From the IMG/VR virus record IMGVR_UViG_3300031159_000072, positions 1 to 64,000 of that record: a stretch of 64,000 nucleotides of DNA; one strand, written 5' to 3'. Below, piece by piece: positions 2,984-52,063 of this stretch. The DNA is from a virus. The notes under the pieces were generated by a model. The model was not told the DNA's origin, made no database searches, and was given only the letters and a program-made list of their open reading frames with translations. A program made the translations under genes and the position numbers. The stretch's first letter is position 1; each line of letters begins with the position of its first letter.

Positions 2984-3006
2984 TCCTTGGTGCAGGTGTG
3001 CGGATT

Positions 3007-32681: not shown

Positions 32682-32750
32682 GCCTTGTGGCGGGGAGCCT
32701 TGGAGGCCGGCGGGCCTCATAAGCCCGTCCTCGGTGGTTCGATTCCACCC
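32679..32750 (+). ncRNA. tRNA-like element 1 (CAT anticodon loop, canonical T-arm, 3' CCA; degenerate D-arm)
   Basis: Anticodon stem-loop CGGGC-CTCATAA-GCCCG, T-arm GGTGG-TTCGATT-CCACC, acceptor GGCGGGG/CTCCGCT with two G·U pairs, then A-CCA; the D-region is only ~13 nt. Confidence 0.4.
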
Positions 32751-32752
32751 TC

Positions 32753-32828
32753 CGCTACCAATGCGGCGTTGGTCACTCTGGTGAGGGCCTCGGCCTTCCA
32801 AGCCATTGAGGCGAGTTCGATTCTCGCA
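32753..32828 (+). tRNA. tRNA-like gene, 76 nt, Gly(TCC)-like anticodon loop
   Basis: Perfect 7-bp acceptor GCGGCGT/ACGCCGC, discriminator T, CCA; T-arm GCGAG-TTCGATT-CTCGC at canonical positions 49-65; anticodon loop CTTCCAA but only 3 of 5 stem pairs. Confidence 0.55.
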
Positions 32829-32841
32829 CGCCGCTCCAGAC

Positions 32842-38158: not shown

Positions 38159-39046
38159 ATGTGGGTGCTTCCGCCCGACATGACCGTCGCCGAGGTGGCC
38201 CGTCTGGGCCGCGACGGCGACACCGAGCTGGTCCACATCAACAAGTGGGAAAGAGCCATTCTCGAGGCCCTCGGTGGGCGCGGCTCGATCAACCCCGCCA
38301 CCGGCCTGCGCGAATACCCGCCGTCTGGCAACAAGGGCAATCAGGATTCCAAGACCGGCGGCTACGGCGGCGGCGGTGGCTTTGGTGGTGGCGGCGGAGG
38401 TGGCCTTGGTGGCGGCGGCGGCGGTGGCTACTCCGGCCCGAAGGGCACGGTGTCTGGCGGTCTCAACGCCGCGGCAAGGGCGGCGGCGTCCAAGAAGGCC
38501 GGCCCCTCCGACAAGACGCGCGATCCGGCCATTCATGGCGGGAGCACAAGCGGCGCCAGTGTCGGTGAAGTCGCCAGTGGGTTCGGGCAAGGGTTCACGA
38601 AGGGAAGCATTCTCGGCAGCGCCGTCGCCGGCATACCCGGAGCAATCGCCGGCGGCCTCATCGGCGGCTTTGCCGGCGCCGTCGATGCCATTGGCGGGCA
38701 AGGCGGCCTGGCCGGGAGCAATCGCGGTCTCGGCGATCCCGGCTCGCACGACAACCATCCTGGCTTTGGAGGCGGCTACGTTCAGCCCGAGCCGGAGCCT
38801 GAGCCGGAGCCGGAACCCGAGCCGGACCCAGAGCCGGAGCCCGAGCCTGAGCCCGAACCGGAGCCTGAGCCGGAGCTTCCGATTGTCGGCGTGCCCACGC
38901 AACCGCCACTCCCACCGGCCGGCGTTTCGTACCTGTTGCCCATCCAGGACCGTCTGACGGGCGGGCTGGACTATCTGTCTCTCAGCCCCTTCAGCTCGCT
39001 CCTATTCAACCGGCGCGCCGGTTGGGGCGCCATAATCGAGGTGTAA
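38159..39046 (+). CDS. Gly-rich virion protein with an (Glu-Pro)n repeat
   Basis: GGYGGGGGFGGGGGGGLGGGGGGGY...; EPEPEPEPEPEPDPEPEPEPEPEPEPEPE encoded by a (GAGCCN)n hexamer repeat at 38786-38876. Confidence 0.55.
   Translation: MWVLPPDMTVAEVARLGRDGDTELVHINKWERAILEALGGRGSINPATGLREYPPSGNKGNQDSKTGGYGGGGGFGGGGGGGLGGGGGGGYSGPKGTVSGGLNAAARAAASKKAGPSDKTRDPAIHGGSTSGASVGEVASGFGQGFTKGSILGSAVAGIPGAIAGGLIGGFAGAVDAIGGQGGLAGSNRGLGDPGSHDNHPGFGGGYVQPEPEPEPEPEPEPDPEPEPEPEPEPEPEPELPIVGVPTQPPLPPAGVSYLLPIQDRLTGGLDYLSLSPFSSLLFNRRAGWGAIIEV
38786..38876 (+). repeat. tandem hexanucleotide repeat (GAGCCN) x ~15 encoding (EP)n
   Basis: Direct read. Confidence 0.8.
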
Positions 39047-39047
39047 A

Positions 39048-39920
39048 ATGGGGTGGGGTGATTTTCTCGGTGGCATCGCCGACGACCTCTTCGACCTCGG
39101 CGGCGTCGGCAGCACGATCGGCAGCGGCATCGACATCATCGGCGGCATCGGCAGCGCGAAGAAGAAATCCAAGCAGGCGCAGAAACTCGCCGACCTCCAG
39201 ACGGACATCATCGAGCGCCAGCTCCAGCTCGCCGAGCAACAGTTCGCGCAGGACACCGCCGTGCGTGAGCGCATTCTTTCGCAGACGGATGCGCTGCGGG
39301 AAGCCTTGTCCGGCGCTCTTGAACGCATGGGTGAGATCGACCCGGACGCCTTCCGCGCCGACGTCGACCGCGAGGCGCTGCGCCGCTACTCCCAGTATCA
39401 AGACGACGTCGGCCGGGCGATCACGCTTGCCGGCTCGATCGGCGTGGCCGACCGCATGGACCGCGGCCTCGATCTCTCGACCTACGACGCCGACCAGCGC
39501 GCCGCCCTGGCCGAGGCCGGCGCAAGAGCGCTTCAGGACGCCTACACGCGCGCCTATGACGAGTCGCTCGCCTACATGACCGGCCTTCAGGACCAGATCT
39601 TGCAGAACCGCGCCAGCGCCTTGGACGAGATCGCCCTGGCCCTCGGGGCCACGCTCCCGTTCGAGACCAATCTCTACGGCGCCGGCCGCATCGGCGCCGG
39701 CCTTCTCCACAGTGGTCTCGGCGGCGCGCAGAGCCTGTATGGCATCGCCAACCAGAACGCGGCCGACGCCTACGAGAGCCTTGGTGACATGATCGAGGAG
39801 TTTCGTGAGAAATACCTGCCGAGCCTGAGCAACCTGCTCGGCGACGACGATGACGACAAGGCCAAGACGCCGTCGCTCAAGAACACCGGCCCCGGCGGTC
39901 TCGTCGGAGGCGGCGTCTGA
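39048..39920 (+). CDS. internal virion protein candidate (290 aa)
   Basis: Gly-rich N-terminus, helical centre, acidic DDDDDK C-terminus; position before the giant protein. Confidence 0.45.
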   Translation: MGWGDFLGGIADDLFDLGGVGSTIGSGIDIIGGIGSAKKKSKQAQKLADLQTDIIERQLQLAEQQFAQDTAVRERILSQTDALREALSGALERMGEIDPDAFRADVDREALRRYSQYQDDVGRAITLAGSIGVADRMDRGLDLSTYDADQRAALAEAGARALQDAYTRAYDESLAYMTGLQDQILQNRASALDEIALALGATLPFETNLYGAGRIGAGLLHSGLGGAQSLYGIANQNAADAYESLGDMIEEFREKYLPSLSNLLGDDDDDKAKTPSLKNTGPGGLVGGGV

Positions 39921-41716
39921 TGGCGATCTACGACTACCTCGGCGCCTTCCGCAGAGGGCAGCTCGCCGCGCGCGAGCGCCATGAGGCCAAGCGCGCGAAG
40001 GTCGCGGCTATGTTCGATGAGTTCCGCCAGGCGGCGCTCCAGGAGGGCCGATCGGTCTCGCCCCAAGAGTTTCACAGCTTCATTGACCAGATCACCGGCG
40101 GCGAGCAGTACCTGCGCCGCTACCTGCCGACCGACCAAATCATCGCCGGCATGTCCCGCGCGACGCAGGAGCGCGCCCGCCAGCTCCGGGAGGAGCGCGC
40201 GTTCACCGCCTTCCAGCGCAAGCAGACGATCCAGCAGACGTTCCAGAACGCCGTCGACTCGATGCTTCTCAGCGAGCCGGACGACCGCAAGATCATCCAG
40301 CGCCTGCGCGAGCAGTACGACGACCCCGCCCTTCGGGAAACGCTCGGCGAGTACATTGCCGGCCTCGGCCCAGACGGGCTGAAGCAGCGCCGCGCGCGCC
40401 TGGCCCACGACCGCGCCGCGGAGTGGATGAACAAGCTCCCACAGGAGCTGACGGCCGATCAGGTCGAGGTCTTCATGGTCGGCGAGCACCCGACGGTCGT
40501 GCAGGCCACGAAGGCGCTCGCCGCCGCCCGCGACCGGGAGCGCTACGAGGCCAAGCGCCGGGAGGCGCTCATGGCCGTCGTCAACCAGCTCCAGGACCCG
40601 TTTGTCATCAAGGCGTATGGCGACGGCAACCTGGCCAAGGTCAAGTCCGCCCTCAACGTCTACACCGCGCCGTTCGGCGTCCAGGTCGACGACGCCCTGC
40701 TCGGCCAGATCAAGCCGATGCTCGACATGAAGCTGGCTCAGATCCGCGAGGATGAGCGCATCGCCGGTGTCAACGCCTTCATGGCCGACGTCCAGAACGA
40801 CCCGGTCCTGCTCTCGGTCATCTCGAAGGCCGGCGTGACCTCCGAGGAGGCGCAGCGCGGCATGCAGTTCTACGCCAACAAGCACAACATCGCGCTGACC
40901 GACGACATCTATCGCCAAGTCATCGAGCGCGCCGAGCAGTTCGAGAACGCCGCCGAGCAGCAGCGCGTCATCGAGCTGCGCAACCTCGCTCTCAAGACGG
41001 CGACGGAGCAGGTCGACGCGCTCCTCACGCAGAACACCAACAGCCTGGCCGCCATCGCCAGCCAGTACGACAAGAACTCGCCCGAGTACGCGGCGCTCAA
41101 CCTGCTTTCGCAGTCGCACTACGTCACGAACCTCGCGCCGATCCCGGCCATCCTGGACCAGACGGGCAGCAGCGACCCGGTGGCCATCATGAACGAGATC
41201 GTCGCTGCCCTCGGAGACGCGGCGATCCCCAAAGCCGAGTTCCGCCAGGCCGCCATCAACCAGCGCGCCAGCGCCATGGCAGGCCCGCCGATGGAGCCGT
41301 TCCGGAACTTCCAGGCGCGCCAGACAGCCGTCCTGGAGAACGCGGTCAACAATTGGCAGCGCGTCGCGGCCCAGGCCACGACGCAGGAAGAGTTCTACGC
41401 GATCATCCAGATTTACCTGGACCAGATCGACGCCGCGCTCCTGGCCGCCCAGGAAGCGGCGCTCTACGAGTCGCGCTACATGGGCTACGACCACGCCGCG
41501 AACCAGCGCACGGCGAACGCCCTCAAGGAGCTGCGCGACGCGCTCGAAGCGGCCCAGCCCCCGGCCGACCTCCCGACCGCCGAGGAGCTGGCCAAGCAGC
41601 AGGCGGCGGCGCGCAACGCCGCCGCGGCGGCTGCGGCTGCGGCTCAGGTCCCGGACGTCACGCGCGAGCGCATGCAAGCGGTCATGCCGCCGGTCCCCGG
41701 CTTGGTCAGTCCCTGA
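39920..41716 (+). CDS. internal virion/ejection protein candidate (598 aa)
   Basis: Highly α-helical, Ala/Gln/Arg-rich; ATGA-coupled. Confidence 0.45.
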   Translation: MAIYDYLGAFRRGQLAARERHEAKRAKVAAMFDEFRQAALQEGRSVSPQEFHSFIDQITGGEQYLRRYLPTDQIIAGMSRATQERARQLREERAFTAFQRKQTIQQTFQNAVDSMLLSEPDDRKIIQRLREQYDDPALRETLGEYIAGLGPDGLKQRRARLAHDRAAEWMNKLPQELTADQVEVFMVGEHPTVVQATKALAAARDRERYEAKRREALMAVVNQLQDPFVIKAYGDGNLAKVKSALNVYTAPFGVQVDDALLGQIKPMLDMKLAQIREDERIAGVNAFMADVQNDPVLLSVISKAGVTSEEAQRGMQFYANKHNIALTDDIYRQVIERAEQFENAAEQQRVIELRNLALKTATEQVDALLTQNTNSLAAIASQYDKNSPEYAALNLLSQSHYVTNLAPIPAILDQTGSSDPVAIMNEIVAALGDAAIPKAEFRQAAINQRASAMAGPPMEPFRNFQARQTAVLENAVNNWQRVAAQATTQEEFYAIIQIYLDQIDAALLAAQEAALYESRYMGYDHAANQRTANALKELRDALEAAQPPADLPTAEELAKQQAAARNAAAAAAAAAQVPDVTRERMQAVMPPVPGLVSP

Positions 41717-42062
41717 TGCGCTCGAACTCGTAGTCGGTGCCGGGCTTGGGCCTCCAGCCCAGCTCGTACATGCACATTCGCTTGAGCTTCCGAACCTCGA
41801 TCATGCGCGCGCTCATGCCGAGCGTGCCCGTTGCGCCGCCGCAACCGCTCGGGCGCGCCTCGAACTGATGGGCGTAGCCGTCGCCCCACATGCTGGAAGA
41901 GCGCCCCGTGATCCTCGTGCCGCGACACGCCTCCTTCCGCTGGTCCAAGTACAACTCGACCCTGTCCGAGCAATAGTCGAGATCATCGCTCCACGGATAG
42001 GTGCCGGCCGCGGCCTGGCCCGCCACGAGCAGGAGCGTTGCCAGAATAACCATAATCCGCAT
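41706..42062 (-). CDS. secreted small protein, reverse-oriented moron (118 aa)
   Basis: Signal peptide MRIMVILATLLLVAGQAAAG; 6 Cys; opposite strand inside the structural operon. Confidence 0.55.
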   Translation of the reverse strand: MRIMVILATLLLVAGQAAAGTYPWSDDLDYCSDRVELYLDQRKEACRGTRITGRSSSMWGDGYAHQFEARPSGCGGATGTLGMSARMIEVRKLKRMCMYELGWRPKPGTDYEFERIRD

Positions 42063-42164
42063 TATCGGCTCCTTTCGGATCAAGGCCGCCAATACTGAGC
42101 CCGCCCAGAAGCTTCTTCAAGACCCAGCGAGAAGGACGACCGCTACCCCGCCGCCCCGCTAAGC

Positions 42165-45100
42165 ATGGGCCATTCACCCTTTCATGTGGATGGACATGCC
42201 CACATGGCCGTTCTGAGCACGGCGCCGCTGACGCCCGAACAGGTCCTCGCCCTCGCCCGGCAGCGCGCCCAGGCCCTTGCCGCCGGCGACTACACCGCCG
42301 TCATCAACCCCCGCACGATCACCAAGGACCCGCGCTTCCTCGCGGACCTGCGCCTGTTCTACCGCGAACGCGACGGCCAGGAGTTCGCCACCGACGAGGA
42401 GCTGCTTGACTACTTCTTCGAGGACCGCAACTGGCGGAATCTGAACACCGTCAGCATCGCCCGCGATGTCGCCGACGCCTACGGCATGTCCGAGGATCAG
42501 CGCGCCCGGATGCGCCGCATCCAGTCGGTCTTCGACGCGCTCCCCTCGTTCTGGCGTGAGGGCGGCCGCGGCGTCGCGGCTCTCCCGGACATCGCCGGGG
42601 CCGTCCTCGCCGACCCGCTCAACCTCATCCCCGGCACGGCCGGCGCGAAGGTCGGCATCCAGGCCGCCAGGGCCGGCGCGCCGGTGGCCAGCGCCGCACT
42701 CCGCGGCGGGGCCAGAGCCGCCCTACTCGAAGGCGCCGCGTCCGGCGCGATCGAAGCCGGCGCAGACATCGGGCTCCAGGCGCGCGACATCCAGATCGGT
42801 CTGCAAGACGAGTTCAGCCCCGGCCAGACGGCCGCCTCCGCGGCGTCTGGCGCGCTCCTCACCGCCCCCATCTCCGGCGCGATCGGTGCCGGCTCCGCGA
42901 TCGCCGGCTTCCGCCGGGAGGCCGCACGTCTCGGTCAGCAGGCGGCCGAAGAAGCCGCGGCCCAGGAACGGGCGGCCAACGCACCCATCCAGGCGGCGCA
43001 GGCGCGCGGCCTGCTCATGCCGCTGCCCGAGGCCACCGACCCGCAGGCGGCCGCCCGCGAAGCTCAGCTCCGCGCCATGGAGCGCCCGGCCGGCCCGTCG
43101 CCCAACATCCAGCAGCGTCTGCGCGACGTCGAGGACATCATCCGCCAGGCGCTGGCCGACGGAAATCCGCAGCCCGAGGAGCTGGCCACCCTCCAGCGGG
43201 AGCACGCCCTGCTCCTCCGCATGGCCAACTTCGAGCGAACCAAGCCGGCCCGCGTCGCCGAGATCGAGCAGCTCACCGAGCAGGGCAAGTACGAAGAAGC
43301 CTCCAAGAAGCGCATCGCCCTCATGCAGGACGAGGCGCTGTTCGCGCGGCTGTCCGCCGATCCCCAGCAGCTCGACTTCCTCGACGAGCTGGCCGCGCCC
43401 CAGGAACCGACGGCAACCGCCGCCGCGCCGGCGCCAGACGCTCCGCCGACGTCTGGCGCGCCAGAACAGCAGCCGGCAACTGTACAGTCTGAACAAAGCG
43501 CACAAAGCGCTGCACAAGCCGCGCAAAGCCCAGAACAAACACTCGATGACGACGCCATTGTCGAGCAACTCATTTCGCTTCTCGAGATGCTCGGCCCGCA
43601 GGGTGCGCGTCGTGAAGTCTTCGAGGCGGCCGTAGACGCCGACCCTGCGCTCGCGCCGGCGCGCGAGCGCCTGCTCCAGACCTATGACTCGCTGATGGAG
43701 CAGTACGCCGACAGCGCGTCCGCGGCCCTGACTCCGCAGCAGCAGCAGTTCGTTGAGAACGAGGTCGCCCTCTACCGCCTGAAGCTGGCCAAGGAGGAGC
43801 CCGACCTCACGCCGGTGCAGGTCGAGGCGCGGGTGGCCACGCTGCGCCTCATGATTACCCGCCGCCTGCTCCAGGGCGCGGCACCCGAACAGGCCGTCCC
43901 GTCGCCCGCGGAGCGCGGCCCGACGCCGTCTCGCCTGGGCAAGCCCGACTTCAACATCGTCAAGCCGGATCGCCTGCCGTCCTGGATGCGCAAAGGCGAC
44001 TTCATCGGCCGCGCCCCGTCCGTGGGCCAGTTCTCGATGGAGGCGGCCCGTGCGCGCGCCAGGGAGATGGCCGGCGCTCGCGGCAACGTGAGGGATGTCG
44101 CGCCGTTCCGGTTCGTCTGGGACGGCAAGGCCACGCGCACCGCCGACGGCCAGCGCATCAAGAGCGGCGACGAGGTCTTCTACGACCCGCGAACCGACAA
44201 GCTCTGGGCCAAGGACACCAACATCCCCGGCCAGGAGAAGAAGCCCGCAGCGCGTCCTGAGCAGCCGGCCCCGGAAGAAGCCACTCCCGCCGATCCCGGC
44301 GCCGCGGCCGTCCGGGCCGCCGCCGAGGAACTCGCGCGCACCGGCGACATGGCCGCCTTCCGTGCCCGCCTTGCAGAGATCTTGGGCGAGGGCAAGGTCG
44401 CGTCTCCAGAAACGTCCAAAGCACGTCCAGATACGTCCAAAGTACGTCCAGATGCGGGCGCAGGTGGGACACAGCAGGGCACGTCTGGCGAGCCCCAGAC
44501 GTCTGGCGAGAATAGAATAGGTTCCGATTCCGAACCTAATCTATTCATCCCGGAGGGCCGGGTCCTCGCCGTTCAGCGCCGGTCCAATCCGAACGACATC
44601 CGCGTCGCCAGCCCGAACCAGGTCGCTTCCGGCGCCGGACCGGAGGCGCTCATCGGCCGCGGCAACCCGGACGACTGGGTCGTCGGCCACGTTCCCGCCG
44701 GCTCGCGCAGCGGCAAGGTCGCGCCCGACGCCTTCACGCCGGCCGACGCCACCGCGGCCAGGGTGCCCGAGCGCGCGCCCGAGCCGACCGCCGAGGGCAA
44801 GCTGCCGCCCGACTGGACGGAGCTAGCCAACATCAAGGTTCCGTGGGGCGGCGGCGAGATCACGGCGCAAGAGCTGCTCAGGAACGTGCGCGCCATGGAA
44901 AACGCGCCGTGGCCGCGCACCACCCTTGGCGTCCTCGATACCATCCAATACCTGCGCGACGCCTACCGGGTGCTGCCGGACTTCCGCCAGCCGGTCGCCT
45001 CTCGAGAAGAGGCCGTCCAGCAGATCACGAAGATCTTCGAGGACCGCGATCCGGCCACGATCGTCGCGGCCCGCGACTTCATCCGCCGTCTGGGCGGTGA

Positions 45101-48100
45101 TCCGAACGTCGCGCCGATCATCGACACCGACGTCGTGCCGAACGCCTTCGGCAGCTTCACGCACCTGCCCACGAACCCCGATCGGTTCAACCGGGTCCAT
45201 ATCGGCGTCCTCCCCGAGAACGACCCGACCCGCTACAAGCCGGAGATATCGACCTTCTATCACGAGGTCGCGCACTGGGCTTACCACAACATCCTGACCC
45301 CGACGGACCGTCTGGCGTTCTGGGAGAGCATCCTCGAACAGTACAAGGCGGGTGGTCCCAAGGACCTCAGAGGTCTTCCGAGAAGCGTCAGCCGGCGCGT
45401 CGCGCGCAACCTGCCGCACGTTGAGGGCAACGCGCTCGAAAGCCCGCAGGAGTACTTCGCCAACCAGTTCGAGCAGTGGATGGCGTCCGGCGGCCGCACG
45501 CCCGGCAACCAGACGCTGTGGCGCCGCGTCGCCGAGATCATCGAGAACCTCATCCGCCGGTTCTTCGACAAGGGCCTGATCGACCCGGCGCTTGAGCCGC
45601 TGTTCGCCAAGATCCTGCCCGACGACGTCGCGCGGGCGCGCGTCGAGACGCCGACCGTCGAACCGAAGACGCAGGCCGGTCGCGACATCCGCGCCGCCAT
45701 GGGCACGGCCGACCAAGAGCGCATCGACCTGGAGCGCCGGCTCAACACGCTCGATCCGCAGCCGATGGCCGCCGCCATCTTCAACGCGAGCCGCGGCTTG
45801 GCGCGCCTCATGTCGTCCGAGACGCTCCCCATCGACGTCCGGGAGCGATTCCAGGAGCGCGTCGGGGCCATCCACGAGAAGATGAACGAGGCCGCCGGGC
45901 GGTCGCTCTCGTCCGACGAGCAGGTCCTCGCCCTCGCCAACATCGGCAACGACATCGTCGACCTGCACCACGACCTCCAGCGCGAGCTGGCAGCGGCCTT
46001 CAAGGCGGCCGAGGGCGGCGAGCCGCGCCTGCCGGGCAACCCGCACGAGGCCAAGCGCGAGCCGCAGACGCCGCTCGGCCGCGTGGCGCTGCGCAACCTG
46101 GCGCTGATCGAAGACGCCCGTGCCGCCATGCAGCAGGCGCTGCTGACCGAGAGCGCCTCGATTCCCGACGTCATGCGCGACACGGCCAAGCAGCTCCAGA
46201 GCGTGGCCACGCTCGGCTCCATGCGCCGGCTGCGCGGCCAGTTCAACGAGCTGGCGCGCCAGATCTACGCGCTCACCGGCAGCGACGGCACCGACCCCGA
46301 CTTCCCCGGCGTCACGACCAGCCTGTCGGACGACACCGTCTCGCAGCTCTTCAACCTGGCGGCCGAGGTCGACGACGCCTTCAACCGCGCCTCCGACACG
46401 CTCAAGCGCGTCTTCAAGCGCGTCGAGAAGTACGACCCGGACACCGGCCGCGCCTGGCGGCGCAGCGCGCTCGGCGCCAAGTACGCGGCCCGCGCCAAGA
46501 TCCGCAAGCAAATCGCCAAGCGGGCCGAGCGCCAGCAGGCCCAGACGAACGCCGCCGTCAACAAGGTCGTGACCACGCCGAAGGCCAGGCGCCAGACGGC
46601 ACCGACGCCCGCCGAAGAACAGGCCGGCGCGCCCAGCCTGCTCAAGATGTCCGACGAGGACCTCACCGCGGAGCTGAACCGGGTCGGTATCGGCACCGCG
46701 CGTGGCCAGCAGATCGCCTTCGAGATCGCCCGCCGTGCCGCGGCCAAGCCCGTCGAAGTCGACCCAAACACCAGGGTCCCGCTCGACATCTTCCGCATGC
46801 GCGGCGCCGAGCTGCGGGCCGCCCTCGACGAAGCGCTCCAGGCCGGCGACCGCGAGCGCGTCACCCAGATCCGCGCCGAGATCCAGCGCCGCGCCGACAA
46901 GCGCGCCATGCGCCCGCGCAACAGCGCGGTTCAGCGCGCCATCGCCCGCGAAGTCGAGGCCAACGCCGGCGTTCCGACCGACGACGGTATCCCCTTCTAC
47001 GCCGACGAGCACGCGAAGGAGATCCTGCGCCGGATCACCCATCGCGACCCGCAGGCCCAGTACGCGGCGCGCGTCATGACCTACCGCATGCTGAACCTGC
47101 TCGGCCGGACGGCACGTGAGGGCCTGGCCCAGACGAACATCATGTCCGTTGGCGACCTCTACCGCCTGGCCGGCAGCCCGCTGCCGGAGGGCGTCGACCC
47201 GGAGGGCGCCTTCTTCGACTTCTCGGACCCCGCCTTCGCGAAGCTGCGCGCCGACCTGCGCCGCATGGCCATCGGCCTCAAGGAGGGCCAGGCCACGCCG
47301 ATGACCGTGATGCACGAGATCGGCCACATGGTGCTGCGCACCAACCTCTTCAGCCCGGAGGAGCGCGCGTCCATCGTCGAGGCGTTCCAGAAGGCCGACG
47401 ACGAGGTGGCGCAGGCCATCCGCAACAACCCCGCCTACGGCGAAGAGCCCCTGGAGACCAGGGCCGAGGAGTGGTTCGTCGAGCGCTGGGCGAACTACGC
47501 GGCCGAGCGCGTGGCCAAGGGCGACGTCTGGCGCGCCCGCCTGGAGGGTCCGGACGCCGAGGCCAACCTCCGCCTCAAGAGCCGTCTGGAGGTCATCCTC
47601 GACCGCCTCGTCGAGGCGGTGGCCTACGTCGTCAACGGCCTGATCGGCCGCAACGACATCAAGCAGATGTTCCGCCGCATGACCTTCTACGGGGACATGC
47701 TCGGCGGCAGCCGCGTTGAGGGCGCCACGCAGGTCGCCCTGCCGCCCGAGCTGGCGCGCGCCTACTCCGAGAAGGCCATGAGGGCCGCGGGCATGTCGCG
47801 CAAGCAGCGCATGGAGGCGTTCGTCGCCAACGGCGTCGGCCGCGGCCCGAACGGCGAGGTCCGCATCTTCTTCCACGGCACGCCGAGCGGCGCCGCCTTC
47901 AACCGCCGCCGCAACCCGGACGTGGTCCTGGAGCCGTCGAGCAACGGCCTATGGGGTCCCGGCGTCTACGCGACCGACAACGAGGCCGTCGCCACCGAGG
48001 TCTACGCCGCCGACGCCACGCCCACCGCGGTCCGCCGCATGGCCGAGGAGAAGGGACTCGACCCCGAGGCCGTCCGCTTCGTCGAGGAGTCGGCCGAGAT

Positions 48101-51100
48101 GCGCGCGAACCTCGTGTCGGCTCGCAAGGCCGCGCAGCGCGAGATGGAGCGCACGAGACGCAACGGCTCCGCCATGCTCGGCGTGGACACGGACGACCGT
48201 CTGGCGCAGTTGCAGAACGAGATCAGCCAGTACGACGCCCTCATCGCCGACATCGACCGCGACCTCGCCGACCTGGGCATCCAGCCGCAGCCGCTGGTCC
48301 TGCCGCTCGTCGTGCGCATGCTGCGGCCGTTCGACCTGCGGATCGACACGCGCTACCGCCGCACGGACCCGGCCATCGCCGAGATCGAGGACGTCCTCAG
48401 CACCTCGGACGTCGTCAACCCGATCATCGTCCAGCAGGTCTTCAACGACATCCCCGAGAGCGGCGTCAACGGCGTCGAGCTGTACCAGGCCATTCTGCTC
48501 CGGGCTTTCACCGACGACGGCCGCACCGAGAGCGAGGCCAAGACGGAGATCGCCGCGCTGCTGCAAGACCTCGGCTACGACGGCCTGCGCACCACGCACG
48601 AGAACGCGCTGAGGAGCGGTGCCGTCGTCGAGCACGAGGGCCTGGTCGTCTTCGACCCGGCCAACGTCAAGCACGTCAACGCCCGCTGGTTCGACTGGAA
48701 CAACGAGGGGCTCTACCGCAGCGAGATCCAGACGCCGATCGCGCCGTCGGCGTCGATCGTCGAGGCGGCCCTCGAGACGGACGCGCCGTTCAACACGCGC
48801 AACCCGGCGCCCATGCTCAGCGCCTTCCAGGCGGCCGGCGTCGGCCCGGCCCTGACGGGCCTGGCCCGCAAGGTTCTGCGCCGCGAGGCCCCGACCCCGA
48901 CCGATATGGAAACGGCCCGCAAGTTCTCCTGGCCGCTCCAGCTCCGCTCGAACAGCCGCCGCCTGCGTGAGATCAGCAATGCGCACTATGTGGCCGACTG
49001 GATCGCGCCGGAGAACGGCCCCGGCATCGCCGAGCGTCACAACCAGGAGCTGGCCGCCAAGGTCGTTCCCGTCTTCGAGATGCTCAACAAGCTGCCCGGC
49101 GCCGGCGCCGTCAACCGCTGGCGGCACAGCCTGAAGTTCTGGGGGCAGGTCAGCCAGCCGGAGAGCTTCACCCGCATCGTCAAGGCCATGCGGCGCGGCG
49201 ACCCGAGCAACCTTAGCGCCGACGAGCGCCGCATCTACGATCGCATCTCCACCCTCTTCCGCGAGGAGCTGGGGCGTCTGCGCGACGCCGGCGTCGAGAT
49301 CGGGAACATCCTGAACTACTTCCCGCAGGTCTGGGACGTCGAGGCGATCCGCCGCAACACCGACGAGTTCCGCGCCAAGCTGGCCGACTACTTCCAGCGC
49401 GAGTCCCGCCTCGACCCGGCCCGCAGCCCGATCGGCCGCGAGGACGCGCTCGGCCGCGCCGACCGCGTCCTCCAGAGGCTGCTCGACGACGAGGGCGTCT
49501 ACATCCCGCCAAAGGCCGAGACGGCCTCGCCGACGAGCGACCACGTCGACTACAACCGCATGATAAAGCTCCACCTTCCGGACTTCCGGGAGGACCTGGA
49601 CGCCCTTGAGCCGTTCCTGGTCAGCGACCTCCAGGGGCTTCTGGCGAAGTACTTCGACGGCAGCACCAGACGCATCCAGTTCAACCAGCAGTGGGGCGTC
49701 AACAACCATGCCTTCCACGACTACAAGGCGGTGGCCGCCTACGGCCTGCCGGCGGTGCGCGAGCTGCTGTCCACGCGCAAGATCCTCAACGTCGATCGCC
49801 GCGTCGTGACCGACGAGGGCGTCGAGGTCGTCTCGCTGCGCAAGAACCTGATGGTGCCGCTCGACTTCAACGTCGTGGGCGAGGCGGCCCAGACGGCCCT
49901 CGACATGGTTCAGGCCGGCGACAAGGCGGGGGCCAAGCGCTACCTGATGTCGCTTCAGCCCTACCAGACGCCGACCTACGAGCGCCGCGTCGACGCCATC
50001 GTGAACGCGCTCGCCGACTTCGGCGGCCGCCCGCGCGGCATGGCCAATCAAGAGCTGAAGTTCATGGACGGTCTGTTCCGCACGCTCCAGCGCAAGCCGA
50101 TCGACACCGGACCGTTCTTCGAGGGCTCGCTCAAGGCCAGCAAGTTCCTGCGCAACTTCAACAGCGTGACGCTGCTCGGCTTCACCACGCTCACCAGCGT
50201 GCCAGACGTGGCCCTGCCACTGATCCGCAGCGGCAACATGAAGGCGTGGCTCTCCGGCCTGCGAAAGTGGGGGACGGACCCGGACTACCGGGCGGCCATC
50301 CGCAACGTCGGCGTCGGCGTCGAGAACATCGTCCACCAGCAGCTCGCCACCCTCTACGGCAACGCTGGCGGGCGGTTCTCCAACGCCTTCTTCAACGCGA
50401 CGATGCTGGCCGGCTGGACCCAGACGCAGCGCGAGATCGCCGGCCTGGTCGCCTTCGAGGCGTTCAAGACCGAAGCCCGTCGCATGCTCCAGAACCAGCC
50501 GCGCATCGTCAACGGCGTGCCCGTGGCCAACCGCGCCCATCGAATGGCCAGACGCTTCCTCGAACGGTACGGTCTCGAGCACTACGGCCGGCCCGGCGCG
50601 CCCAACCTCGACGACATCAACGTCCTGCGCAACGACCCGAAGGTTCGCGCGGCGATCATCAAGTTCGCCAACGAGACCATCTTCGCGCCGAACCCGAACG
50701 ACATCCCGCTCTGGGCGCAGACGCCCTGGGGCTCGGTCGCGTTCCAGCTCAAGAGCTTCCCGCTCATGATGGGGCGCCTGGCCAAGGACGTGCTGAAAGA
50801 AGCCGGGCGCGGCAACGTCGCGCCGCTGCTCTACATGGCGTCGATCGGCGCCGGCCTCGGCGCGGCGCAGATGGCCATCAAGGACGTCGTGCAGGCCCGC
50901 GGCGGCGAGGACGAGCGCTCGTTCGACCTGCGCGAGCGCAGCCTGAGCCAGATCGCCGAGGCCATGGGCTACGACGTCCGTCTGCACGGCGACGTCGACA
51001 CGTTCCTCGGCTGGTACGTCGAGAGCTTCATGGCCCTGGGCGGCCTCGGCATGGTGGCCGAGCTGCTCTACAACACGGCCTCCATGCTCGACAACGGCAG

Positions 51101-51398
51101 CTTCGGCTTCCAGCGGACGATGGGCTACCTGTTCGGCCCGACCGTCGGCACCGCCGCAAGCGCCTTCAACGTGGCCGCCGGCGTCACCTCCCTGATCCGC
51201 GACGAAGACAGCAACGCCAAGCTGCGCACGGCCGTGCGCGAGACGGCACTGCGCGTGCCCGTCGCCGGTGGCATCCGCGCCTTCCGTGAGGGCGCCACGG
51301 ACCTTATCGCCGGAGAGGCGCAGCGAGGCGGCGGTGGTGGCGGGTTCGGAAGAGGCTTTGAGGGCGGTTTCGACAGTGGCTTAGGAGGGGGCTTCTGA
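42165..51398 (+). CDS. giant internal-virion 'polyvalent' protein (3077 aa) with two HExxH zincin-like motifs
   Basis: Single uninterrupted ORF; HEVAH at nt 45261-45275 and HEIGH at nt 47313-47327; sits between internal-virion genes and the lysis cassette. Confidence 0.75.
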   Translation: MGHSPFHVDGHAHMAVLSTAPLTPEQVLALARQRAQALAAGDYTAVINPRTITKDPRFLADLRLFYRERDGQEFATDEELLDYFFEDRNWRNLNTVSIARDVADAYGMSEDQRARMRRIQSVFDALPSFWREGGRGVAALPDIAGAVLADPLNLIPGTAGAKVGIQAARAGAPVASAALRGGARAALLEGAASGAIEAGADIGLQARDIQIGLQDEFSPGQTAASAASGALLTAPISGAIGAGSAIAGFRREAARLGQQAAEEAAAQERAANAPIQAAQARGLLMPLPEATDPQAAAREAQLRAMERPAGPSPNIQQRLRDVEDIIRQALADGNPQPEELATLQREHALLLRMANFERTKPARVAEIEQLTEQGKYEEASKKRIALMQDEALFARLSADPQQLDFLDELAAPQEPTATAAAPAPDAPPTSGAPEQQPATVQSEQSAQSAAQAAQSPEQTLDDDAIVEQLISLLEMLGPQGARREVFEAAVDADPALAPARERLLQTYDSLMEQYADSASAALTPQQQQFVENEVALYRLKLAKEEPDLTPVQVEARVATLRLMITRRLLQGAAPEQAVPSPAERGPTPSRLGKPDFNIVKPDRLPSWMRKGDFIGRAPSVGQFSMEAARARAREMAGARGNVRDVAPFRFVWDGKATRTADGQRIKSGDEVFYDPRTDKLWAKDTNIPGQEKKPAARPEQPAPEEATPADPGAAAVRAAAEELARTGDMAAFRARLAEILGEGKVASPETSKARPDTSKVRPDAGAGGTQQGTSGEPQTSGENRIGSDSEPNLFIPEGRVLAVQRRSNPNDIRVASPNQVASGAGPEALIGRGNPDDWVVGHVPAGSRSGKVAPDAFTPADATAARVPERAPEPTAEGKLPPDWTELANIKVPWGGGEITAQELLRNVRAMENAPWPRTTLGVLDTIQYLRDAYRVLPDFRQPVASREEAVQQITKIFEDRDPATIVAARDFIRRLGGDPNVAPIIDTDVVPNAFGSFTHLPTNPDRFNRVHIGVLPENDPTRYKPEISTFYHEVAHWAYHNILTPTDRLAFWESILEQYKAGGPKDLRGLPRSVSRRVARNLPHVEGNALESPQEYFANQFEQWMASGGRTPGNQTLWRRVAEIIENLIRRFFDKGLIDPALEPLFAKILPDDVARARVETPTVEPKTQAGRDIRAAMGTADQERIDLERRLNTLDPQPMAAAIFNASRGLARLMSSETLPIDVRERFQERVGAIHEKMNEAAGRSLSSDEQVLALANIGNDIVDLHHDLQRELAAAFKAAEGGEPRLPGNPHEAKREPQTPLGRVALRNLALIEDARAAMQQALLTESASIPDVMRDTAKQLQSVATLGSMRRLRGQFNELARQIYALTGSDGTDPDFPGVTTSLSDDTVSQLFNLAAEVDDAFNRASDTLKRVFKRVEKYDPDTGRAWRRSALGAKYAARAKIRKQIAKRAERQQAQTNAAVNKVVTTPKARRQTAPTPAEEQAGAPSLLKMSDEDLTAELNRVGIGTARGQQIAFEIARRAAAKPVEVDPNTRVPLDIFRMRGAELRAALDEALQAGDRERVTQIRAEIQRRADKRAMRPRNSAVQRAIAREVEANAGVPTDDGIPFYADEHAKEILRRITHRDPQAQYAARVMTYRMLNLLGRTAREGLAQTNIMSVGDLYRLAGSPLPEGVDPEGAFFDFSDPAFAKLRADLRRMAIGLKEGQATPMTVMHEIGHMVLRTNLFSPEERASIVEAFQKADDEVAQAIRNNPAYGEEPLETRAEEWFVERWANYAAERVAKGDVWRARLEGPDAEANLRLKSRLEVILDRLVEAVAYVVNGLIGRNDIKQMFRRMTFYGDMLGGSRVEGATQVALPPELARAYSEKAMRAAGMSRKQRMEAFVANGVGRGPNGEVRIFFHGTPSGAAFNRRRNPDVVLEPSSNGLWGPGVYATDNEAVATEVYAADATPTAVRRMAEEKGLDPEAVRFVEESAEMRANLVSARKAAQREMERTRRNGSAMLGVDTDDRLAQLQNEISQYDALIADIDRDLADLGIQPQPLVLPLVVRMLRPFDLRIDTRYRRTDPAIAEIEDVLSTSDVVNPIIVQQVFNDIPESGVNGVELYQAILLRAFTDDGRTESEAKTEIAALLQDLGYDGLRTTHENALRSGAVVEHEGLVVFDPANVKHVNARWFDWNNEGLYRSEIQTPIAPSASIVEAALETDAPFNTRNPAPMLSAFQAAGVGPALTGLARKVLRREAPTPTDMETARKFSWPLQLRSNSRRLREISNAHYVADWIAPENGPGIAERHNQELAAKVVPVFEMLNKLPGAGAVNRWRHSLKFWGQVSQPESFTRIVKAMRRGDPSNLSADERRIYDRISTLFREELGRLRDAGVEIGNILNYFPQVWDVEAIRRNTDEFRAKLADYFQRESRLDPARSPIGREDALGRADRVLQRLLDDEGVYIPPKAETASPTSDHVDYNRMIKLHLPDFREDLDALEPFLVSDLQGLLAKYFDGSTRRIQFNQQWGVNNHAFHDYKAVAAYGLPAVRELLSTRKILNVDRRVVTDEGVEVVSLRKNLMVPLDFNVVGEAAQTALDMVQAGDKAGAKRYLMSLQPYQTPTYERRVDAIVNALADFGGRPRGMANQELKFMDGLFRTLQRKPIDTGPFFEGSLKASKFLRNFNSVTLLGFTTLTSVPDVALPLIRSGNMKAWLSGLRKWGTDPDYRAAIRNVGVGVENIVHQQLATLYGNAGGRFSNAFFNATMLAGWTQTQREIAGLVAFEAFKTEARRMLQNQPRIVNGVPVANRAHRMARRFLERYGLEHYGRPGAPNLDDINVLRNDPKVRAAIIKFANETIFAPNPNDIPLWAQTPWGSVAFQLKSFPLMMGRLAKDVLKEAGRGNVAPLLYMASIGAGLGAAQMAIKDVVQARGGEDERSFDLRERSLSQIAEAMGYDVRLHGDVDTFLGWYVESFMALGGLGMVAELLYNTASMLDNGSFGFQRTMGYLFGPTVGTAASAFNVAAGVTSLIRDEDSNAKLRTAVRETALRVPVAGGIRAFREGATDLIAGEAQRGGGGGGFGRGFEGGFDSGLGGGF

Positions 51399-52063
51399 TG
51401 ACGCGCGGCATTAGGAACAACAACCCCGGCAACATTGAGAATGTGCCGGGTGTCATCTGGCAGGGCACCGACGAGACGCGGAGCGACCCGCGCTTCGTCG
51501 TGTTCAAGGAGCCGAAGTGGGGAATCCGGGCCATCGCCCGCGTCCTCATCACCTACCAGGACAAGCGGCGGGCCAAAGACGGATCGCGCATCGACACGAT
51601 TCAAGAGATCATCGAGCGCTGGGCGCCGGCCCCGGAGAACGACACCGCGTCCTACGTGTCGCACGTCTCGAAGCTTCTGGAGATCGGGTCGACAGACACG
51701 ATCGACGTCTACGACTACGAGACGATGAAGCGTCTGGTAAAGGCGATCATCCTGCACGAGAACGGCCAGCAGCCCTACACCGACGCGCAGATCGACGCCG
51801 GCCTCGTCCTCGCCGGCATCGAGCCGCCGGTCCGCGACCTCGGCAAGACGCGCACGGTGCGCGGCGGCAAGATCGGCATCGGCGCCACGGGCGCGGTCGT
51901 GGCCGCCGAAGTCCTCGAAGACCTTCGGGTCGTCCAGGATCAGCTCGTTCAGATCATGCCGTACCTGGAGATCGCCAAGTACGCCTTCCTCGCCGTCACG
52001 CTCATCGGCTTCGGCGTCATGCTGTGGGCGCGTCTGGACGACCGCCGGAAGGGTCTGCGATGA
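51398..52063 (+). CDS. putative peptidoglycan hydrolase/endolysin-like protein with a C-terminal TM anchor
   Basis: N-terminal MTRGIRNNNPGNIE motif; C-terminal helix IAKYAFLAVTLIGFGVMLWA; immediately upstream of the spanins. Confidence 0.45.
   Translation: MTRGIRNNNPGNIENVPGVIWQGTDETRSDPRFVVFKEPKWGIRAIARVLITYQDKRRAKDGSRIDTIQEIIERWAPAPENDTASYVSHVSKLLEIGSTDTIDVYDYETMKRLVKAIILHENGQQPYTDAQIDAGLVLAGIEPPVRDLGKTRTVRGGKIGIGATGAVVAAEVLEDLRVVQDQLVQIMPYLEIAKYAFLAVTLIGFGVMLWARLDDRRKGLR

What the first reader, a model, noticed from the sequence alone, without database searches (positions are those of the whole stretch)
42165..51398. 3077-aa giant ORF with two separated HExxH zincin motifs: a polyvalent injected protein?
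A single uninterrupted 9.2-kb reading frame (≈14% of the phage) follows the internal-virion genes. It contains HEVAH (aa ~1033) and HEIGH (aa ~1717), each in a context resembling minimal zincin metallopeptidases, within otherwise unassignable sequence.

Giant multi-domain 'polyvalent' proteins delivered with phage DNA to neutralise host defences are known, but their domain content is highly variable. The rest of this protein may hold undescribed effector domains. I saw no T7-like RNAP motifs that would make it an N4-type virion RNA polymerase.
Basis: partly seen in the sequence, partly recalled or inferred. Interest (0 to 1): 0.65.

Follow-up and report, generated by a model that had tools for sequence, protein, structure and literature searches.

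The report
Giant phage ejection protein carrying enzymes
This 3077-residue prophage gene most likely encodes a protein packed into the virus particle and shot into the host with the DNA, carrying two zinc-protease-like domains and an ADP-ribosyltransferase; it represents a large, undescribed marine phage family of an already known general kind.

Summary
A 3077-aa ORF lies at 42165-51398 (+), with HEVAH at aa 1033 and HEIGH at aa 1717; about 0.03 HExxH are expected by chance.

The gene is real. A profile of the first HExxH domain finds 304 clusters (50% identity), almost all 3000-4000-aa proteins with the same domain order.

- **Second HExxH domain:** a paralogue of the first, catalytically intact in only about half the family.
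an ART-PolyVal-type ADP-ribosyltransferase at aa ~1885-2165.
- **N-terminal module:** homologous to the N-terminus of the gp16-position "internal virion protein D" of T7-like pelagiphages.
- **C-terminal ~850 aa:** an all-helical module shared with the last ejection-cluster protein of coliphage TL-2011b.

No RNA-polymerase module was detected. The protein and almost all relatives lack cysteine, as does N4's ejected giant gp50.

Best reading: a virion-packaged, gp16-class ejection protein that doubles as a "polyvalent" effector carrier. Packaging, ejection and catalysis are inferred, not shown. I rate it a new variant of a known kind.

The parts
42165..51398 (+). Whole giant gene, 3077 aa plus stop. 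There are no cysteines. The start could be M1, V8 or M14.
42297..42929 (+). N-terminal module (aa ~45-255). A conserved globular part is followed by Gly/Ala-rich, moderately hydrophobic segments (aa 137-155 and 223-249). It is homologous to the N-terminus of pelagiphage 'internal virion protein D', the gene in the T7 gp16 position.
   Evidence: tblastn hits 17 pelagiphage records at E down to 6e-15. The deep family HMM hits HTVC019P gp37 aa 36-257 at E 5.9e-53. Present in 115/130 full-length relatives. No PDB sequence match.
42930..44546 (+). Long, poorly conserved low-complexity linker (aa ~256-794), rich in Ala, Pro and Glu.
   Evidence: Conservation profile; composition.
44547..44864 (+). 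Small conserved region of unknown role (aa ~795-900).
   Evidence: Present in 89/130 relatives; conservation.
44862..45644 (+). First zincin-like metallopeptidase domain (aa 900-1160). HEVAH is at aa 1033-1037 (nt 45261-45275). The predicted third ligand, E1096 (nt 45450-45452), lies in the conserved SPQEFFANQF helix.
45645..46961 (+). Poorly conserved Ala/Arg-rich region between the two zincin domains (aa ~1161-1599). It is probably a helical linker.
46962..47714 (+). Second zincin-like domain (aa 1600-1850), a paralogue of the first. HEIGH is at aa 1717-1721 (nt 47313-47327), followed by a downstream AEEWFVE helix. It is intact here but degenerate or missing in about half of the family.
   Evidence: hhalign of first versus second domain: 95.1%, E 3.1e-8, 107 columns (the shallow version gave 80.6%). 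HExxH is kept in 45/88 hits. The N-terminal sub-region is present in 120/130 relatives. Alignment.
47817..48659 (+). ADP-ribosyltransferase domain of the ART-PolyVal type (aa ~1885-2165) with a ~170-aa helical insert. Candidate catalytic residues are H1904 (FFHGT), Y1935 (GPGVYAT) and an acidic residue, E2158 or D2164.
   Evidence: Pfam PF18760 hits 5 of 9 close relatives, best E 6.8e-9. The query itself scores only E 0.062. Alignment. Across 72 family ART segments, H is kept in 57 and Y in 67.
48828..51314 (+). C-terminal module (aa ~2222-3050). It is the best-conserved part of the family, nearly all alpha-helical with one beta-hairpin, and has several moderately hydrophobic helices (aa 2669-2687, 2885-2905, 2947-2965, 2993-3011).
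51315..51395 (+). Gly/Phe-rich C-terminal tail (aa 3051-3077; 54% Gly).
51398..52063 (+). Downstream 221-aa gene resembling a lytic transglycosylase or endolysin. Its ATG overlaps the giant gene's TGA (TGATG), with a GGAGG just upstream. It has no cysteines.
   Evidence: PHROG hits to endolysin and tail-injection transglycosylase families; sequence; Cys count.
38159..41716 (+). Three upstream ORFs (295, 290 and 598 aa) with no recognisable family and no cysteines. They are candidates for partner ejection proteins by position only.
   Evidence: The synteny is conserved in the contig carrying P0008.

Best explanation
The gene encodes a virion-internal 'ejection' (pilot) protein of a temperate podovirus-like prophage of the CRP-810 type. 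It occupies the position and role of T7 gp16 or N4 gp50.

**Proposed sequence of events**
- A few copies are packed into the capsid as a loosely folded string of domains joined by long low-complexity linkers.
- At infection the protein is threaded through the tail.
- The conserved N-terminal and C-terminal helical modules, both with hydrophobic helices, build or anchor the envelope-spanning DNA conduit.
- The middle of the chain reaches the cytoplasm as a ready-made enzyme cargo.

**Roles of the enzyme domains**
- The first zincin domain is universal and keeps its catalytic residues. It most likely works on the giant protein itself, cutting at linkers to release or activate parts, or serving encapsidation as proposed for the N4 vRNAP zincin region. 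Cleavage of host proteins is about equally possible.
- The second zincin domain and the ART-PolyVal domain are accessory payloads that come and go within the family. Both look active here. The ART would ADP-ribosylate host proteins immediately after entry, by analogy with T4 Alt.

**Shown:** domain identities, family-wide conservation, homologies, gene order and cysteine avoidance.
**Inferred:** packaging, ejection, topology, catalysis and targets.
For: **Context**
- The gene is the last large gene of a virion module: terminase, portal, fibres, SU10-type capsid protein, unassigned ~500-aa virion genes, then three unknown ORFs. A cell-wall hydrolase follows it. The same order holds in CRP-810 and in a 63-kb metagenomic contig.
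- An integrase at window 1-1044 and a 184-kb contig for the identical protein indicate a prophage.

**Chassis**
- The N-terminal module matches HTVC019P gp37 (gp16 position in an Autographiviridae genome) at E 5.9e-53.
- The C-terminal module is collinear with the last ejection-cluster protein of TL-2011b, which follows a 905-aa SLT protein.
- The same C-terminal module is fused to ddrB-ParB in P0011.

**Cargo**
- Zincin fold for the first HExxH domain and paralogy of the second.
- ART-PolyVal in relatives.
- Core versus accessory pattern: first zincin domain 130/130; second active in 54/129; ART with H and Y in 49/129.

**Translocation-friendly features**
- No Cys here, and none in 118/129 relatives.
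- N4 gp50 and gp51, HTVC019P gp36 and gp37, and the TL-2011b proteins also have none.
- The chain alternates conserved blocks with low-complexity linkers, like the beads-on-a-string model of N4 gp50 (PMC13434306).

**Literature frame**
- Zincin MPTase is the commonest domain of phage polyvalent proteins. ART-PolyVal has an H-Y-D site. N4 vRNAPs are always fused to an MPTase (PMC5512222).
Against: - No experimental data exist for any family member. The CRP-810 paper reports no virion proteomics for these genes and only names ORF36.
- The query's own ART match is sub-threshold (14.5 bits against a 31.2 cut-off), and the third catalytic residue is ambiguous.
- Cysteine avoidance is not universal among ejection proteins. 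Cyanophage A4 gp27 forms a disulfide (PMC12002296).
- The upstream 'internal virion' ORFs have no detectable homologues.
Confidence: 0.65

Rival explanations
1. Envelope-breaching reading. The protein is an ejection protein, but the HExxH domains act in the periplasm to digest peptidoglycan cross-links or envelope proteins so that the conduit can form. On this view nothing is an anti-host 'effector'.
For: - Ejection proteins often carry wall-degrading enzymes. T7 gp16 has a lytic transglycosylase domain (my own knowledge). Cyanophage A4 gp28 has a lytic transglycosylase plus an M23 metallopeptidase (PMC12002296). The TL-2011b neighbour carries SLT.
- The first zincin domain is universal in the family, as expected for a core entry function.
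Against: - The fold matches are to protein endopeptidases (ArdC, Pro-Pro endopeptidases, lethal factor, CapP, Spartan), not to M15 or M23 muramoyl peptidases.
- A separate wall hydrolase is encoded immediately downstream, both here and in relatives.
- An ADP-ribosyltransferase needs NAD+, which by general knowledge is cytoplasmic, so at least part of the chain is built to act inside the cell.
Confidence: 0.12
2. N4-type virion RNA polymerase. The giant protein would be an ejected RNA polymerase that transcribes early genes.
For: - It is similar in size to N4 gp50 (3500 aa) and equally cysteine-free.
- The layout is similar: N-terminal module, low-complexity linker, HExxH domain, large helical C-terminus (PMC13434306).
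- The first zincin domain aligns weakly but collinearly with the N4 CTD-C1 domain (66.6%, E 5.4e-5).
Against: - No Pfam model hits the giant protein, whereas several N4-type vRNAP relatives carry PF21769, PF21894, PF21624 and PF21867.
- tblastn against 50,697 phage records finds no N4-like phage.
- No PDB sequence hit, although N4 mini-vRNAP structures are deposited.
- hhalign of the C-terminal module against the N4 CTD gives 0.7%.
- The only unmodelled stretch of any size (aa 1161-1599) is the least conserved part of the protein.
- The phage is temperate, with an integrase.
Confidence: 0.03
3. Not delivered at all. The protein would be a late cytoplasmic or structural protein, such as a tail or fibre component, a scaffold, or a toxin used against competitors or superinfecting phages, and is not ejected with the DNA.
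For: - There is no proteomic evidence for packaging.
- The gene lies next to the lysis genes.
- ART and zincin toxin domains also occur in polymorphic toxins (PMC5512222).
Against: - The N-terminal module is homologous to a gp16-position internal virion protein, and the C-terminal module to an ejection-cluster protein.
- Family-wide cysteine avoidance is shared with N4 gp50 and gp51.
- There are no fibre, collar or tape-measure family hits.
- No immunity gene is evident, although I did not search for one systematically.
Confidence: 0.1
4. Packaging-handle reading of the zincin domains. They would be catalytically irrelevant relics kept as structural or encapsidation modules, so only the ART is an enzyme.
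For: - In N4 the region containing the zincin domain is required for encapsidation, yet vRNAP is packaged unprocessed (PMC5512222).
- The second zincin domain has lost HExxH in many relatives while the domain persists.
Against: - H1033, E1034, H1037 and E1096 are invariant or nearly so across a family that otherwise averages about 30% identity. That pattern is hard to explain without metal binding or catalysis.
Confidence: 0.1

Closest known systems
Phage-type polyvalent proteins (Iyer, Burroughs, Anand, de Souza & Aravind 2017, PMC5512222)
   Same: - One very large polypeptide encoded among late virion genes.
- It combines zincin-like MPTase domains, more than one copy here, with an ART of the PolyVal (H-Y-acidic) type.
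- It is predicted to travel with the DNA.
   Different: - No Pfam polyvalent-protein model other than a sub-threshold ART-PolyVal match hits the query; there is no MPTase-PolyVal, MuF or LPD hit.
- The enzyme domains are embedded between two conserved modules shared with podovirus ejection proteins. That paper does not mention gp16 or ejection proteins.
- One zincin domain is a fixed core feature rather than a shuffled payload.
Coliphage N4 gp50, the giant ejected virion RNA polymerase (Bellis et al. 2026, PMC13434306)
   Same: - About 3000-3500 aa and cysteine-free.
- A hydrophobic N-terminal module, a long low-complexity linker, an HExxH zincin-like domain and a large all-helical C-terminal region with no structural relatives.
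- Encoded next to smaller candidate ejection proteins.
   Different: - No RNA-polymerase module.
- Two zincin domains plus an ART instead.
- The C-terminal module is not detectably homologous to the N4 CTD (hhalign 0.7%).
- The phage is temperate and unrelated to Schitoviridae.
T7 gp16 / 'internal virion protein D' and PhiM1 gp48 (podovirus ejectosome proteins)
   Same: - Last and largest gene of the ejection cluster.
- N-terminal ~210 aa homologous to the gp16-position protein of pelagiphage HTVC019P (E 5.9e-53).
   Different: - Two to three times longer.
- No transglycosylase domain in the protein; a separate hydrolase gene lies downstream.
- About 1900 aa of enzyme domains and linkers are inserted.
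ArdC (R388/pSa) metalloprotease domain
   Same: - ArdC is itself a protein transferred with DNA into a new host (PMC5512222).
   Different: - Only 14% identity over 109 aligned residues.
- No ArdC-N ssDNA-binding domain.
- The HExxHW...SPQEFFANQF signature is specific to this family.
T4 Alt (packaged, injected ADP-ribosyltransferase)
   Same: It is the functional model for a virion-delivered ART that modifies host proteins at the moment of infection.
   Different: - Alt belongs to the R-S-E clade and is a small separate head protein.
- Here the ART is of the H-Y-acidic PolyVal type and is part of a giant chain.

Membership tests
Polyvalent proteins (Iyer et al. 2017) | Two or more distinct conflict-type enzymatic domains in one polypeptide | tested here: met
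   Two zincin-like domains plus an ART-PolyVal-type domain.
Polyvalent proteins (Iyer et al. 2017) | Encoded in a (pro)phage late or virion gene neighbourhood | tested here: met
   Terminase, portal, fibres and capsid protein lie upstream and a wall hydrolase downstream. The same synteny holds in CRP-810 and in the P0008 contig.
Polyvalent proteins (Iyer et al. 2017) | Transferred into the host together with the DNA | not testable with these tools
   Needs virion proteomics and infection assays. The only support here is indirect: homology of the termini to ejection-cluster proteins and cysteine avoidance.
Zincin-like metallopeptidase (MPTase) superfamily | HExxH on a helix preceded by a three-stranded sheet, with a downstream helix carrying the third ligand (Glu) | tested here: met
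   The AlphaFold2 model of aa 900-1160 has strands at model residues 86-89, 97-99 and 111-114. The helix at 128-143 carries H134/E135/H138, and the helix at 195-211 carries E197, which is E1096. These residues are invariant or nearly so.
Zincin-like metallopeptidase (MPTase) superfamily | Fold similarity to solved zincins | tested here: met
   [not shown]
Zincin-like metallopeptidase (MPTase) superfamily | Significant match to a curated peptidase sequence model | tested here: not met
   No Pfam or NCBIfam hit on the query. Domain segments of relatives give only weak hits: Peptidase_M91 in 5/36 (best E 0.0025), plus ATLF, Tox-MPTase3 and M48. The PDB profile search gives Ste24p at E 0.64.
Zincin-like metallopeptidase (MPTase) superfamily | Zinc-dependent peptidase activity | not testable with these tools
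   A biochemical assay is required.
ART-PolyVal (Pfam PF18760; Tox-ART-HYD2 clade) | Match to the family model | tested here: inconclusive
   The query scores E 0.062, 14.5 bits against a 31.2-bit cut-off, and only over the first 50 model positions. Five of nine collinear relatives match, best E 6.8e-9, and P0005 carries the precomputed annotation.
ART-PolyVal (Pfam PF18760; Tox-ART-HYD2 clade) | H (strand 1), Y (strand 2) and D (strand 5) active site | tested here: inconclusive
   H1904 and Y1935 are present and conserved (57/72 and 67/72). The acidic residue could be E2158 or D2164, and the alignment does not decide between them. No structure model was made of this domain.
N4-like virion RNA polymerase | Single-subunit T7-like RNA polymerase module of ~1100 aa | tested here: not met
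   [not shown]
N4-like virion RNA polymerase | C-terminal domain: HExxH sub-domain C1 plus large helical C2 | tested here: inconclusive
   The first zincin domain against the N4-like CTD gives 66.6%, E 5.4e-5, collinear over N4 aa ~2137-2369. The C-terminal module against the N4 CTD gives no similarity (0.7%). I could not confirm that the full-length N4 CTD structures (9PNR and related) are in the structure libraries searched; none appeared among the hits.
T7 gp16-type internal virion protein D | Last, largest gene of the ejection-protein cluster downstream of the tail genes | tested here: met
   Gene order in the window, CRP-810, the P0008 contig, HTVC019P and TL-2011b.
T7 gp16-type internal virion protein D | Sequence homology to a gp16-position protein | tested here: met
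   This holds for the N-terminal ~210 aa only: HTVC019P gp37 aa 36-257 at E 5.9e-53, plus 17 pelagiphage records by tblastn. The rest of gp37 does not match.
T7 gp16-type internal virion protein D | N-terminal lytic transglycosylase domain (a feature of T7 gp16 itself) | tested here: not met
   No SLT or lysozyme hit in the protein. A transglycosylase-like gene is separate, at 51398-52063.
T7 gp16-type internal virion protein D | Fold similarity to solved gp16-class proteins | tested here: inconclusive
   [not shown]

The most novel reading that the evidence does not exclude
This family and N4 gp50 may be two versions of one general device: a giant, cysteine-free, beads-on-a-string pilot protein. 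Its invariant zincin domain would be part of the delivery or processing machinery, and its middle would be a swappable cargo slot, holding an RNA polymerase in N4-like phages, an ART and a second peptidase here, and ddrB-ParB in P0011. If so, a widespread group of marine temperate phages injects an active ADP-ribosyltransferase and protease ahead of their genome. The conserved zincin would then be the long-unexplained functional core of such giant ejected proteins.
Probability: 0.25. Interest if true: 0.7.

Novelty: new variant of a known kind. Interest (0 to 1): 0.5.

Why it matters
**Unannotated but abundant.** Giant proteins ejected with phage DNA are known from very few experimental systems (N4 gp50, T7 gp16, P1 Dar proteins, T4 Alt). 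This family has 304 clusters at 50% identity. It occurs in CRP-810-type roseophages, in prophages of Endozoicomonas, Kistimonas and Poseidonocella, and in many marine metagenomes. It is unannotated in Pfam and NCBIfam, and in PHROGs it matches only function-unknown families.

**Links two separate literatures.** The family joins the podovirus ejectosome (gp16-class chassis) to the 'polyvalent protein' effector concept.

**A built-in comparison.** One zincin domain is fixed in every member, while a second zincin and an ART are gained, inactivated or lost. That gives a concrete, testable handle on what the conserved HExxH domain of giant ejected proteins, including N4 vRNAP, actually does. It would also show whether marine phages pre-load host-modifying enzymes.

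The general idea is already in the literature, so this is an extension rather than a new principle.

Tried and rejected
**Searches on the whole protein that found nothing**
- Pfam on the whole protein and on eight segments gave nothing significant; only a sub-threshold ART-PolyVal match appeared.
- NCBIfam gave nothing.
- PHROGs matched only two function-unknown families on the C-terminus.
- phmmer of the whole protein against PDB sequences found nothing.
- Megablast against phage genomes found nothing.

**Profile searches against PDB sequences**
- The first zincin domain, the C-terminal sub-domain and the N-terminal module gave nothing usable.

**Searches with limited return**
- The word-indexed search with the C-terminal 928 aa returned only two proteins, probably because the Gly-rich tail swamped the candidate list.
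- Looking up the contig of the identical protein P0001 found nothing on record.

**Structure and profile comparisons**
- Foldseek of the C-terminal model against PDB gave only non-significant membrane-transporter hits, which I do not interpret.
- vRNAP hypothesis: family HMMs against N4 gp50, and hhalign of the C-terminal module against an N4-like CTD alignment, gave no similarity.

**Neighbouring ORF**
- The upstream 598-aa ORF has no match in PDB sequences or in the phage collection.

**Ideas rejected**
- A tape-measure or tail-fibre identity was rejected: no such family hits, and a podovirus-type gene order.
- Pfam scans of three relatives that lack the ART found no alternative effector domain, only a small E3_binding-like motif in the linker.

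**Technical note**
- The alignment used for the second structure job misplaced the first ~70 residues of the query segment. Those residues are the low-confidence start of the model, and I did not interpret them.

**Not done**
Full report
**1. Observation**

The window carries one uninterrupted ORF at 42165..51398 on the + strand, 3077 aa with an ATG start. It contains exactly two HExxH motifs: HEVAH at aa 1033 and HEIGH at aa 1717. With 35 His and 218 Glu, composition predicts 0.028 such motifs.

The DNA is about 70% G+C, and long spurious ORFs do occur on other frames. This ORF is nevertheless a real gene:
- An identical protein (P0001, called from M14) and eight 29-43%-identical giants are in public data.
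- A profile of the first HExxH domain finds 304 representatives of 50%-identity clusters, 140 of them at E<=1e-30. Nearly all are 3000-4000 aa.

The start codon is uncertain: M1, V8 or M14, with no clear ribosome-binding site.

**2. Surroundings**

The window is a temperate phage or prophage.
- An integrase lies at 1-1044 (-), with CobT/VWA and AAA+ genes nearby.
- The + strand then runs through terminase, portal, fibre genes, an SU10-type major capsid protein, two ~500-aa unassigned virion genes and three ORFs with no recognisable family (38159-41716). The giant gene follows, then a transglycosylase/endolysin-like gene and a primase-polymerase.
- The downstream gene's ATG overlaps the giant gene's stop (TGATG), with a GGAGG just upstream.

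The same gene order is found in Roseobacter phage CRP-810, the only cultured relative in the phage collection (36.6% identity). It is also found in a 63-kb metagenomic contig carrying P0008. The CRP-810 paper names only ORF36 'internal virion protein D' and does not discuss the giant (PMC11288001). Relatives occur in Endozoicomonas, Kistimonas and Poseidonocella genomes and in marine MAGs.

**3. Anatomy of the protein**

I built sub-profiles from the nine-sequence alignment (A1) and scanned 130 full-length representatives. The domain order is fixed:

| Part | Residues | Present in family |
|---|---|---|
| N-terminal module | ~45-255 | 115/130 |
| Low-complexity Ala/Pro/Glu linker | ~256-794 | not scored |
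| Small conserved block | ~795-900 | 89/130 |
| First zincin domain | 900-1160 | 130/130 |
| Poorly conserved Ala/Arg region | ~1161-1599 | not scored |
| Second zincin domain | 1600-1850 | N-terminal half 120/130, catalytic half 89/130 |
| ADP-ribosyltransferase | ~1885-2165 | 81/130 |
| C-terminal module | ~2222-3050 | 129-130/130 |
| Gly/Phe tail | 3051-3077 | not scored |

The termini are the best-conserved parts.

**4. The HExxH domains**

*First domain.*
- H1033, E1034, H1037, W1038 and E1096 are invariant in the close alignment. The motif is kept in 131/134 domain hits.
- An AlphaFold2 model of aa 900-1160 with a 36-sequence alignment is confident (pLDDT 82.2, pTM 0.83). It shows four N-terminal helices, three strands, the HExxH helix and a later helix carrying E1096. 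This is the zincin core as described for polyvalent-protein MPTases (PMC5512222).
- Sequence models give only weak hits: Peptidase_M91 in 5/36 segments, ATLF, Tox-MPTase3 and M48, and Ste24p at E 0.64.

*Second domain.*
- It is a paralogue of the first. hhalign of deep alignments gives 95.1%, E 3.1e-8, over 107 columns from the HExxH helix to the end of the domain (the shallow version is).
- Two relatives (P0012, P0013) carry a second copy that scores as the first-domain type.
- Its HExxH is intact in the query but degenerate (IDLIQ, GDLMH) or deleted in other members. Overall 54 of 129 proteins have two HExxH motifs.

*Link to N4.* The first domain also aligns weakly but collinearly with the HExxH sub-domain of N4-like vRNAP C-terminal regions: 66.6%, E 5.4e-5, N4 aa ~2137-2369.

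**5.

Residues ~1885-2165 form an ART.
- Five of nine relatives hit Pfam ART-PolyVal (best E 6.8e-9).
- The query itself scores only E 0.062, but it is collinear with those relatives and keeps FFHGT (H1904) and GPGVYAT (Y1935).
- Across 72 family ART segments, H is kept in 57 and Y in 67. The acidic third residue is E2158 or D2164.
- ART-PolyVal is described as an H-Y-D enzyme typical of phage and conjugative polyvalent proteins (PMC5512222).

**6. The terminal modules**

*N-terminal module.*
- It matches 'internal virion protein D' of 17 pelagiphage records.
- In HTVC019P (Autographiviridae) this is gp37, in the canonical gp16 position. The deep family HMM matches gp37 aa 36-257 at E 5.9e-53.

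*C-terminal module.*
- It matches, collinearly, the 1004-aa last protein of the ejection-type cluster of coliphage TL-2011b, which follows a 905-aa SLT protein.
- It also matches the C-terminus of P0011, a 1621-aa protein with a ddrB-ParB domain.
- The AlphaFold2 model (aa 2150-3077; pLDDT 71.5, pTM 0.73) is almost all helical.
- Foldseek against the PDB finds nothing significant, and profile searches against PDB sequences are empty.

Both modules contain moderately hydrophobic Gly/Ala-rich helices.

**7. Cysteine avoidance**

- The protein has no Cys. About 11 are expected from the other virion genes.
- 118 of 129 relatives also have none, and the maximum is 2.
- The three upstream ORFs and the downstream hydrolase are Cys-free too.
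- So are HTVC019P gp36 and gp37 and the two TL-2011b proteins, and N4 gp50 (3500 aa) and gp51.

This fits proteins that must be threaded, loosely folded, through a narrow channel. It is not universal, however: cyanophage A4 gp27 forms a disulfide (PMC12002296).

**8. Interpretation**

The most economical reading is a gp16-class ejection protein that also serves as a polyvalent effector carrier.
- The alternation of conserved blocks and long low-complexity linkers resembles the beads-on-a-string model proposed for N4 gp50. That protein likewise has a membrane-associating N-terminal domain, an HExxH sub-domain and a large helical C-terminal part with no structural relatives (PMC13434306).
- The first zincin domain is universal, while the second zincin and the ART are variable. 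I therefore think the first zincin belongs to the protein's own life cycle (processing at linkers after ejection, or encapsidation). The second zincin and the ART are accessory payloads aimed at the host.
- Domain identities, conservation, homologies and synteny are shown. Packaging, ejection, topology, catalysis and targets are inferred.

**9. Rivals**

- *N4-type vRNAP:* essentially excluded.
- *Periplasmic wall or envelope-degrading role for the zincins:* possible, but disfavoured by the fold matches, by the separate hydrolase gene and by the NAD+-dependent ART.
- *Non-delivered late protein:* disfavoured by the terminal homologies and the cysteine pattern.
- *Purely structural role for the zincins:* disfavoured by the invariance of the metal-binding and catalytic residues.

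**10. Novelty**

The kind is known: giant phage polyvalent proteins combining MPTase and ART domains were described computationally in 2017, and giant ejected proteins are known from N4. The new elements are:
- A large, unannotated family.
- The embedding of polyvalent enzyme domains between modules shared with podovirus ejection proteins.
- An RNAP-less protein with an N4-gp50-like layout.
- A clear split between core and accessory catalytic domains.

I rate it a new variant of a known kind, of moderate interest.

Noticed in passing
window 38159-52063; also N4 gp50 and gp51 (L013), HTVC019P gp36 and gp37 (L004), TL-2011b proteins (L002): A contiguous block of five genes (three unknown ORFs, the giant gene and the downstream hydrolase) contains no cysteine at all. 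Other virion genes in the window average 0.37% Cys. In the giant-protein family, 118/129 relatives have none, and N4 gp50 (3500 aa) and the other ejection-cluster proteins I checked also have none.
   Followed up: partly
L001 (Roseobacter phage CRP-810) 14941-24581: The CRP-810 homologue is annotated as three overlapping CDS: gp36 is the N-terminal module, gp35 holds both zincins plus the ART, and gp34 is the C-terminal module. Each is shifted by +1 frame, and both breaks fall in linkers. I could not tell whether this reflects sequencing errors, real separate genes or programmed frameshifts.
   Followed up: partly
window 51396-51400: The giant gene's TGA overlaps the ATG of the next gene (TGATG), with a GGAGG inside the giant gene's last codons. 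This suggests translational coupling to a wall hydrolase. The P0008 contig has the same 1-nt overlap, there with a Peptidase_M15_3 gene.
   Followed up: partly
window 32689-32838: Two adjacent tRNA genes, tRNA-Met (CAT) and tRNA-Gly (TCC), lie just upstream of the major capsid gene.
   Followed up: no
window 1-1044 (-), 5721-8198 (-), 8287-10281 (-), 12470-14167 (-): A tyrosine integrase sits at the left edge, followed by a CobT/VWA protein, an AAA_5 (MoxR/CobS-like) ATPase and another AAA+ protein. The element is therefore a temperate phage or prophage carrying a CobST-like pair.
   Followed up: no
window 41717-42164: A 448-nt gap precedes the giant gene. It contains one sigma-70-like promoter match (42038-42065, 9/12) and no terminator-like site. 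The giant gene may have its own promoter.
   Followed up: no
P0011 (1621 aa, Rhodobacteraceae MAG): A shorter protein combines a ddrB-ParB domain (E 1.1e-35) with a region similar to the giant's C-terminal module. The C-terminal module may therefore carry other polyvalent-protein cargoes.
   Followed up: partly
P0018, P0023 and P0057 at aa ~506-619; query aa ~1955-1970 (weak): Several relatives have a 36-aa E3_binding (peripheral-subunit-binding) motif inside the Ala/Pro-rich N-terminal linker (E 2e-6 to 5e-8). This recalls the linker architecture of 2-oxoacid dehydrogenase E2 chains. The query has only a weak hit elsewhere (E 0.012).
   Followed up: no
window 44823-47876 (-) and 47949-50987 (-): Two antisense ORFs of ~1000 aa lie inside the giant gene. 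They are most likely by-products of the 70% G+C content and not genes.
   Followed up: no
window 38159-39046: The first upstream ORF has a Pro/Glu-rich acidic repeat that hits the low-complexity Trypan_PARP model (E 2e-9, far below its cut-off). This is compositional similarity only.
   Followed up: no
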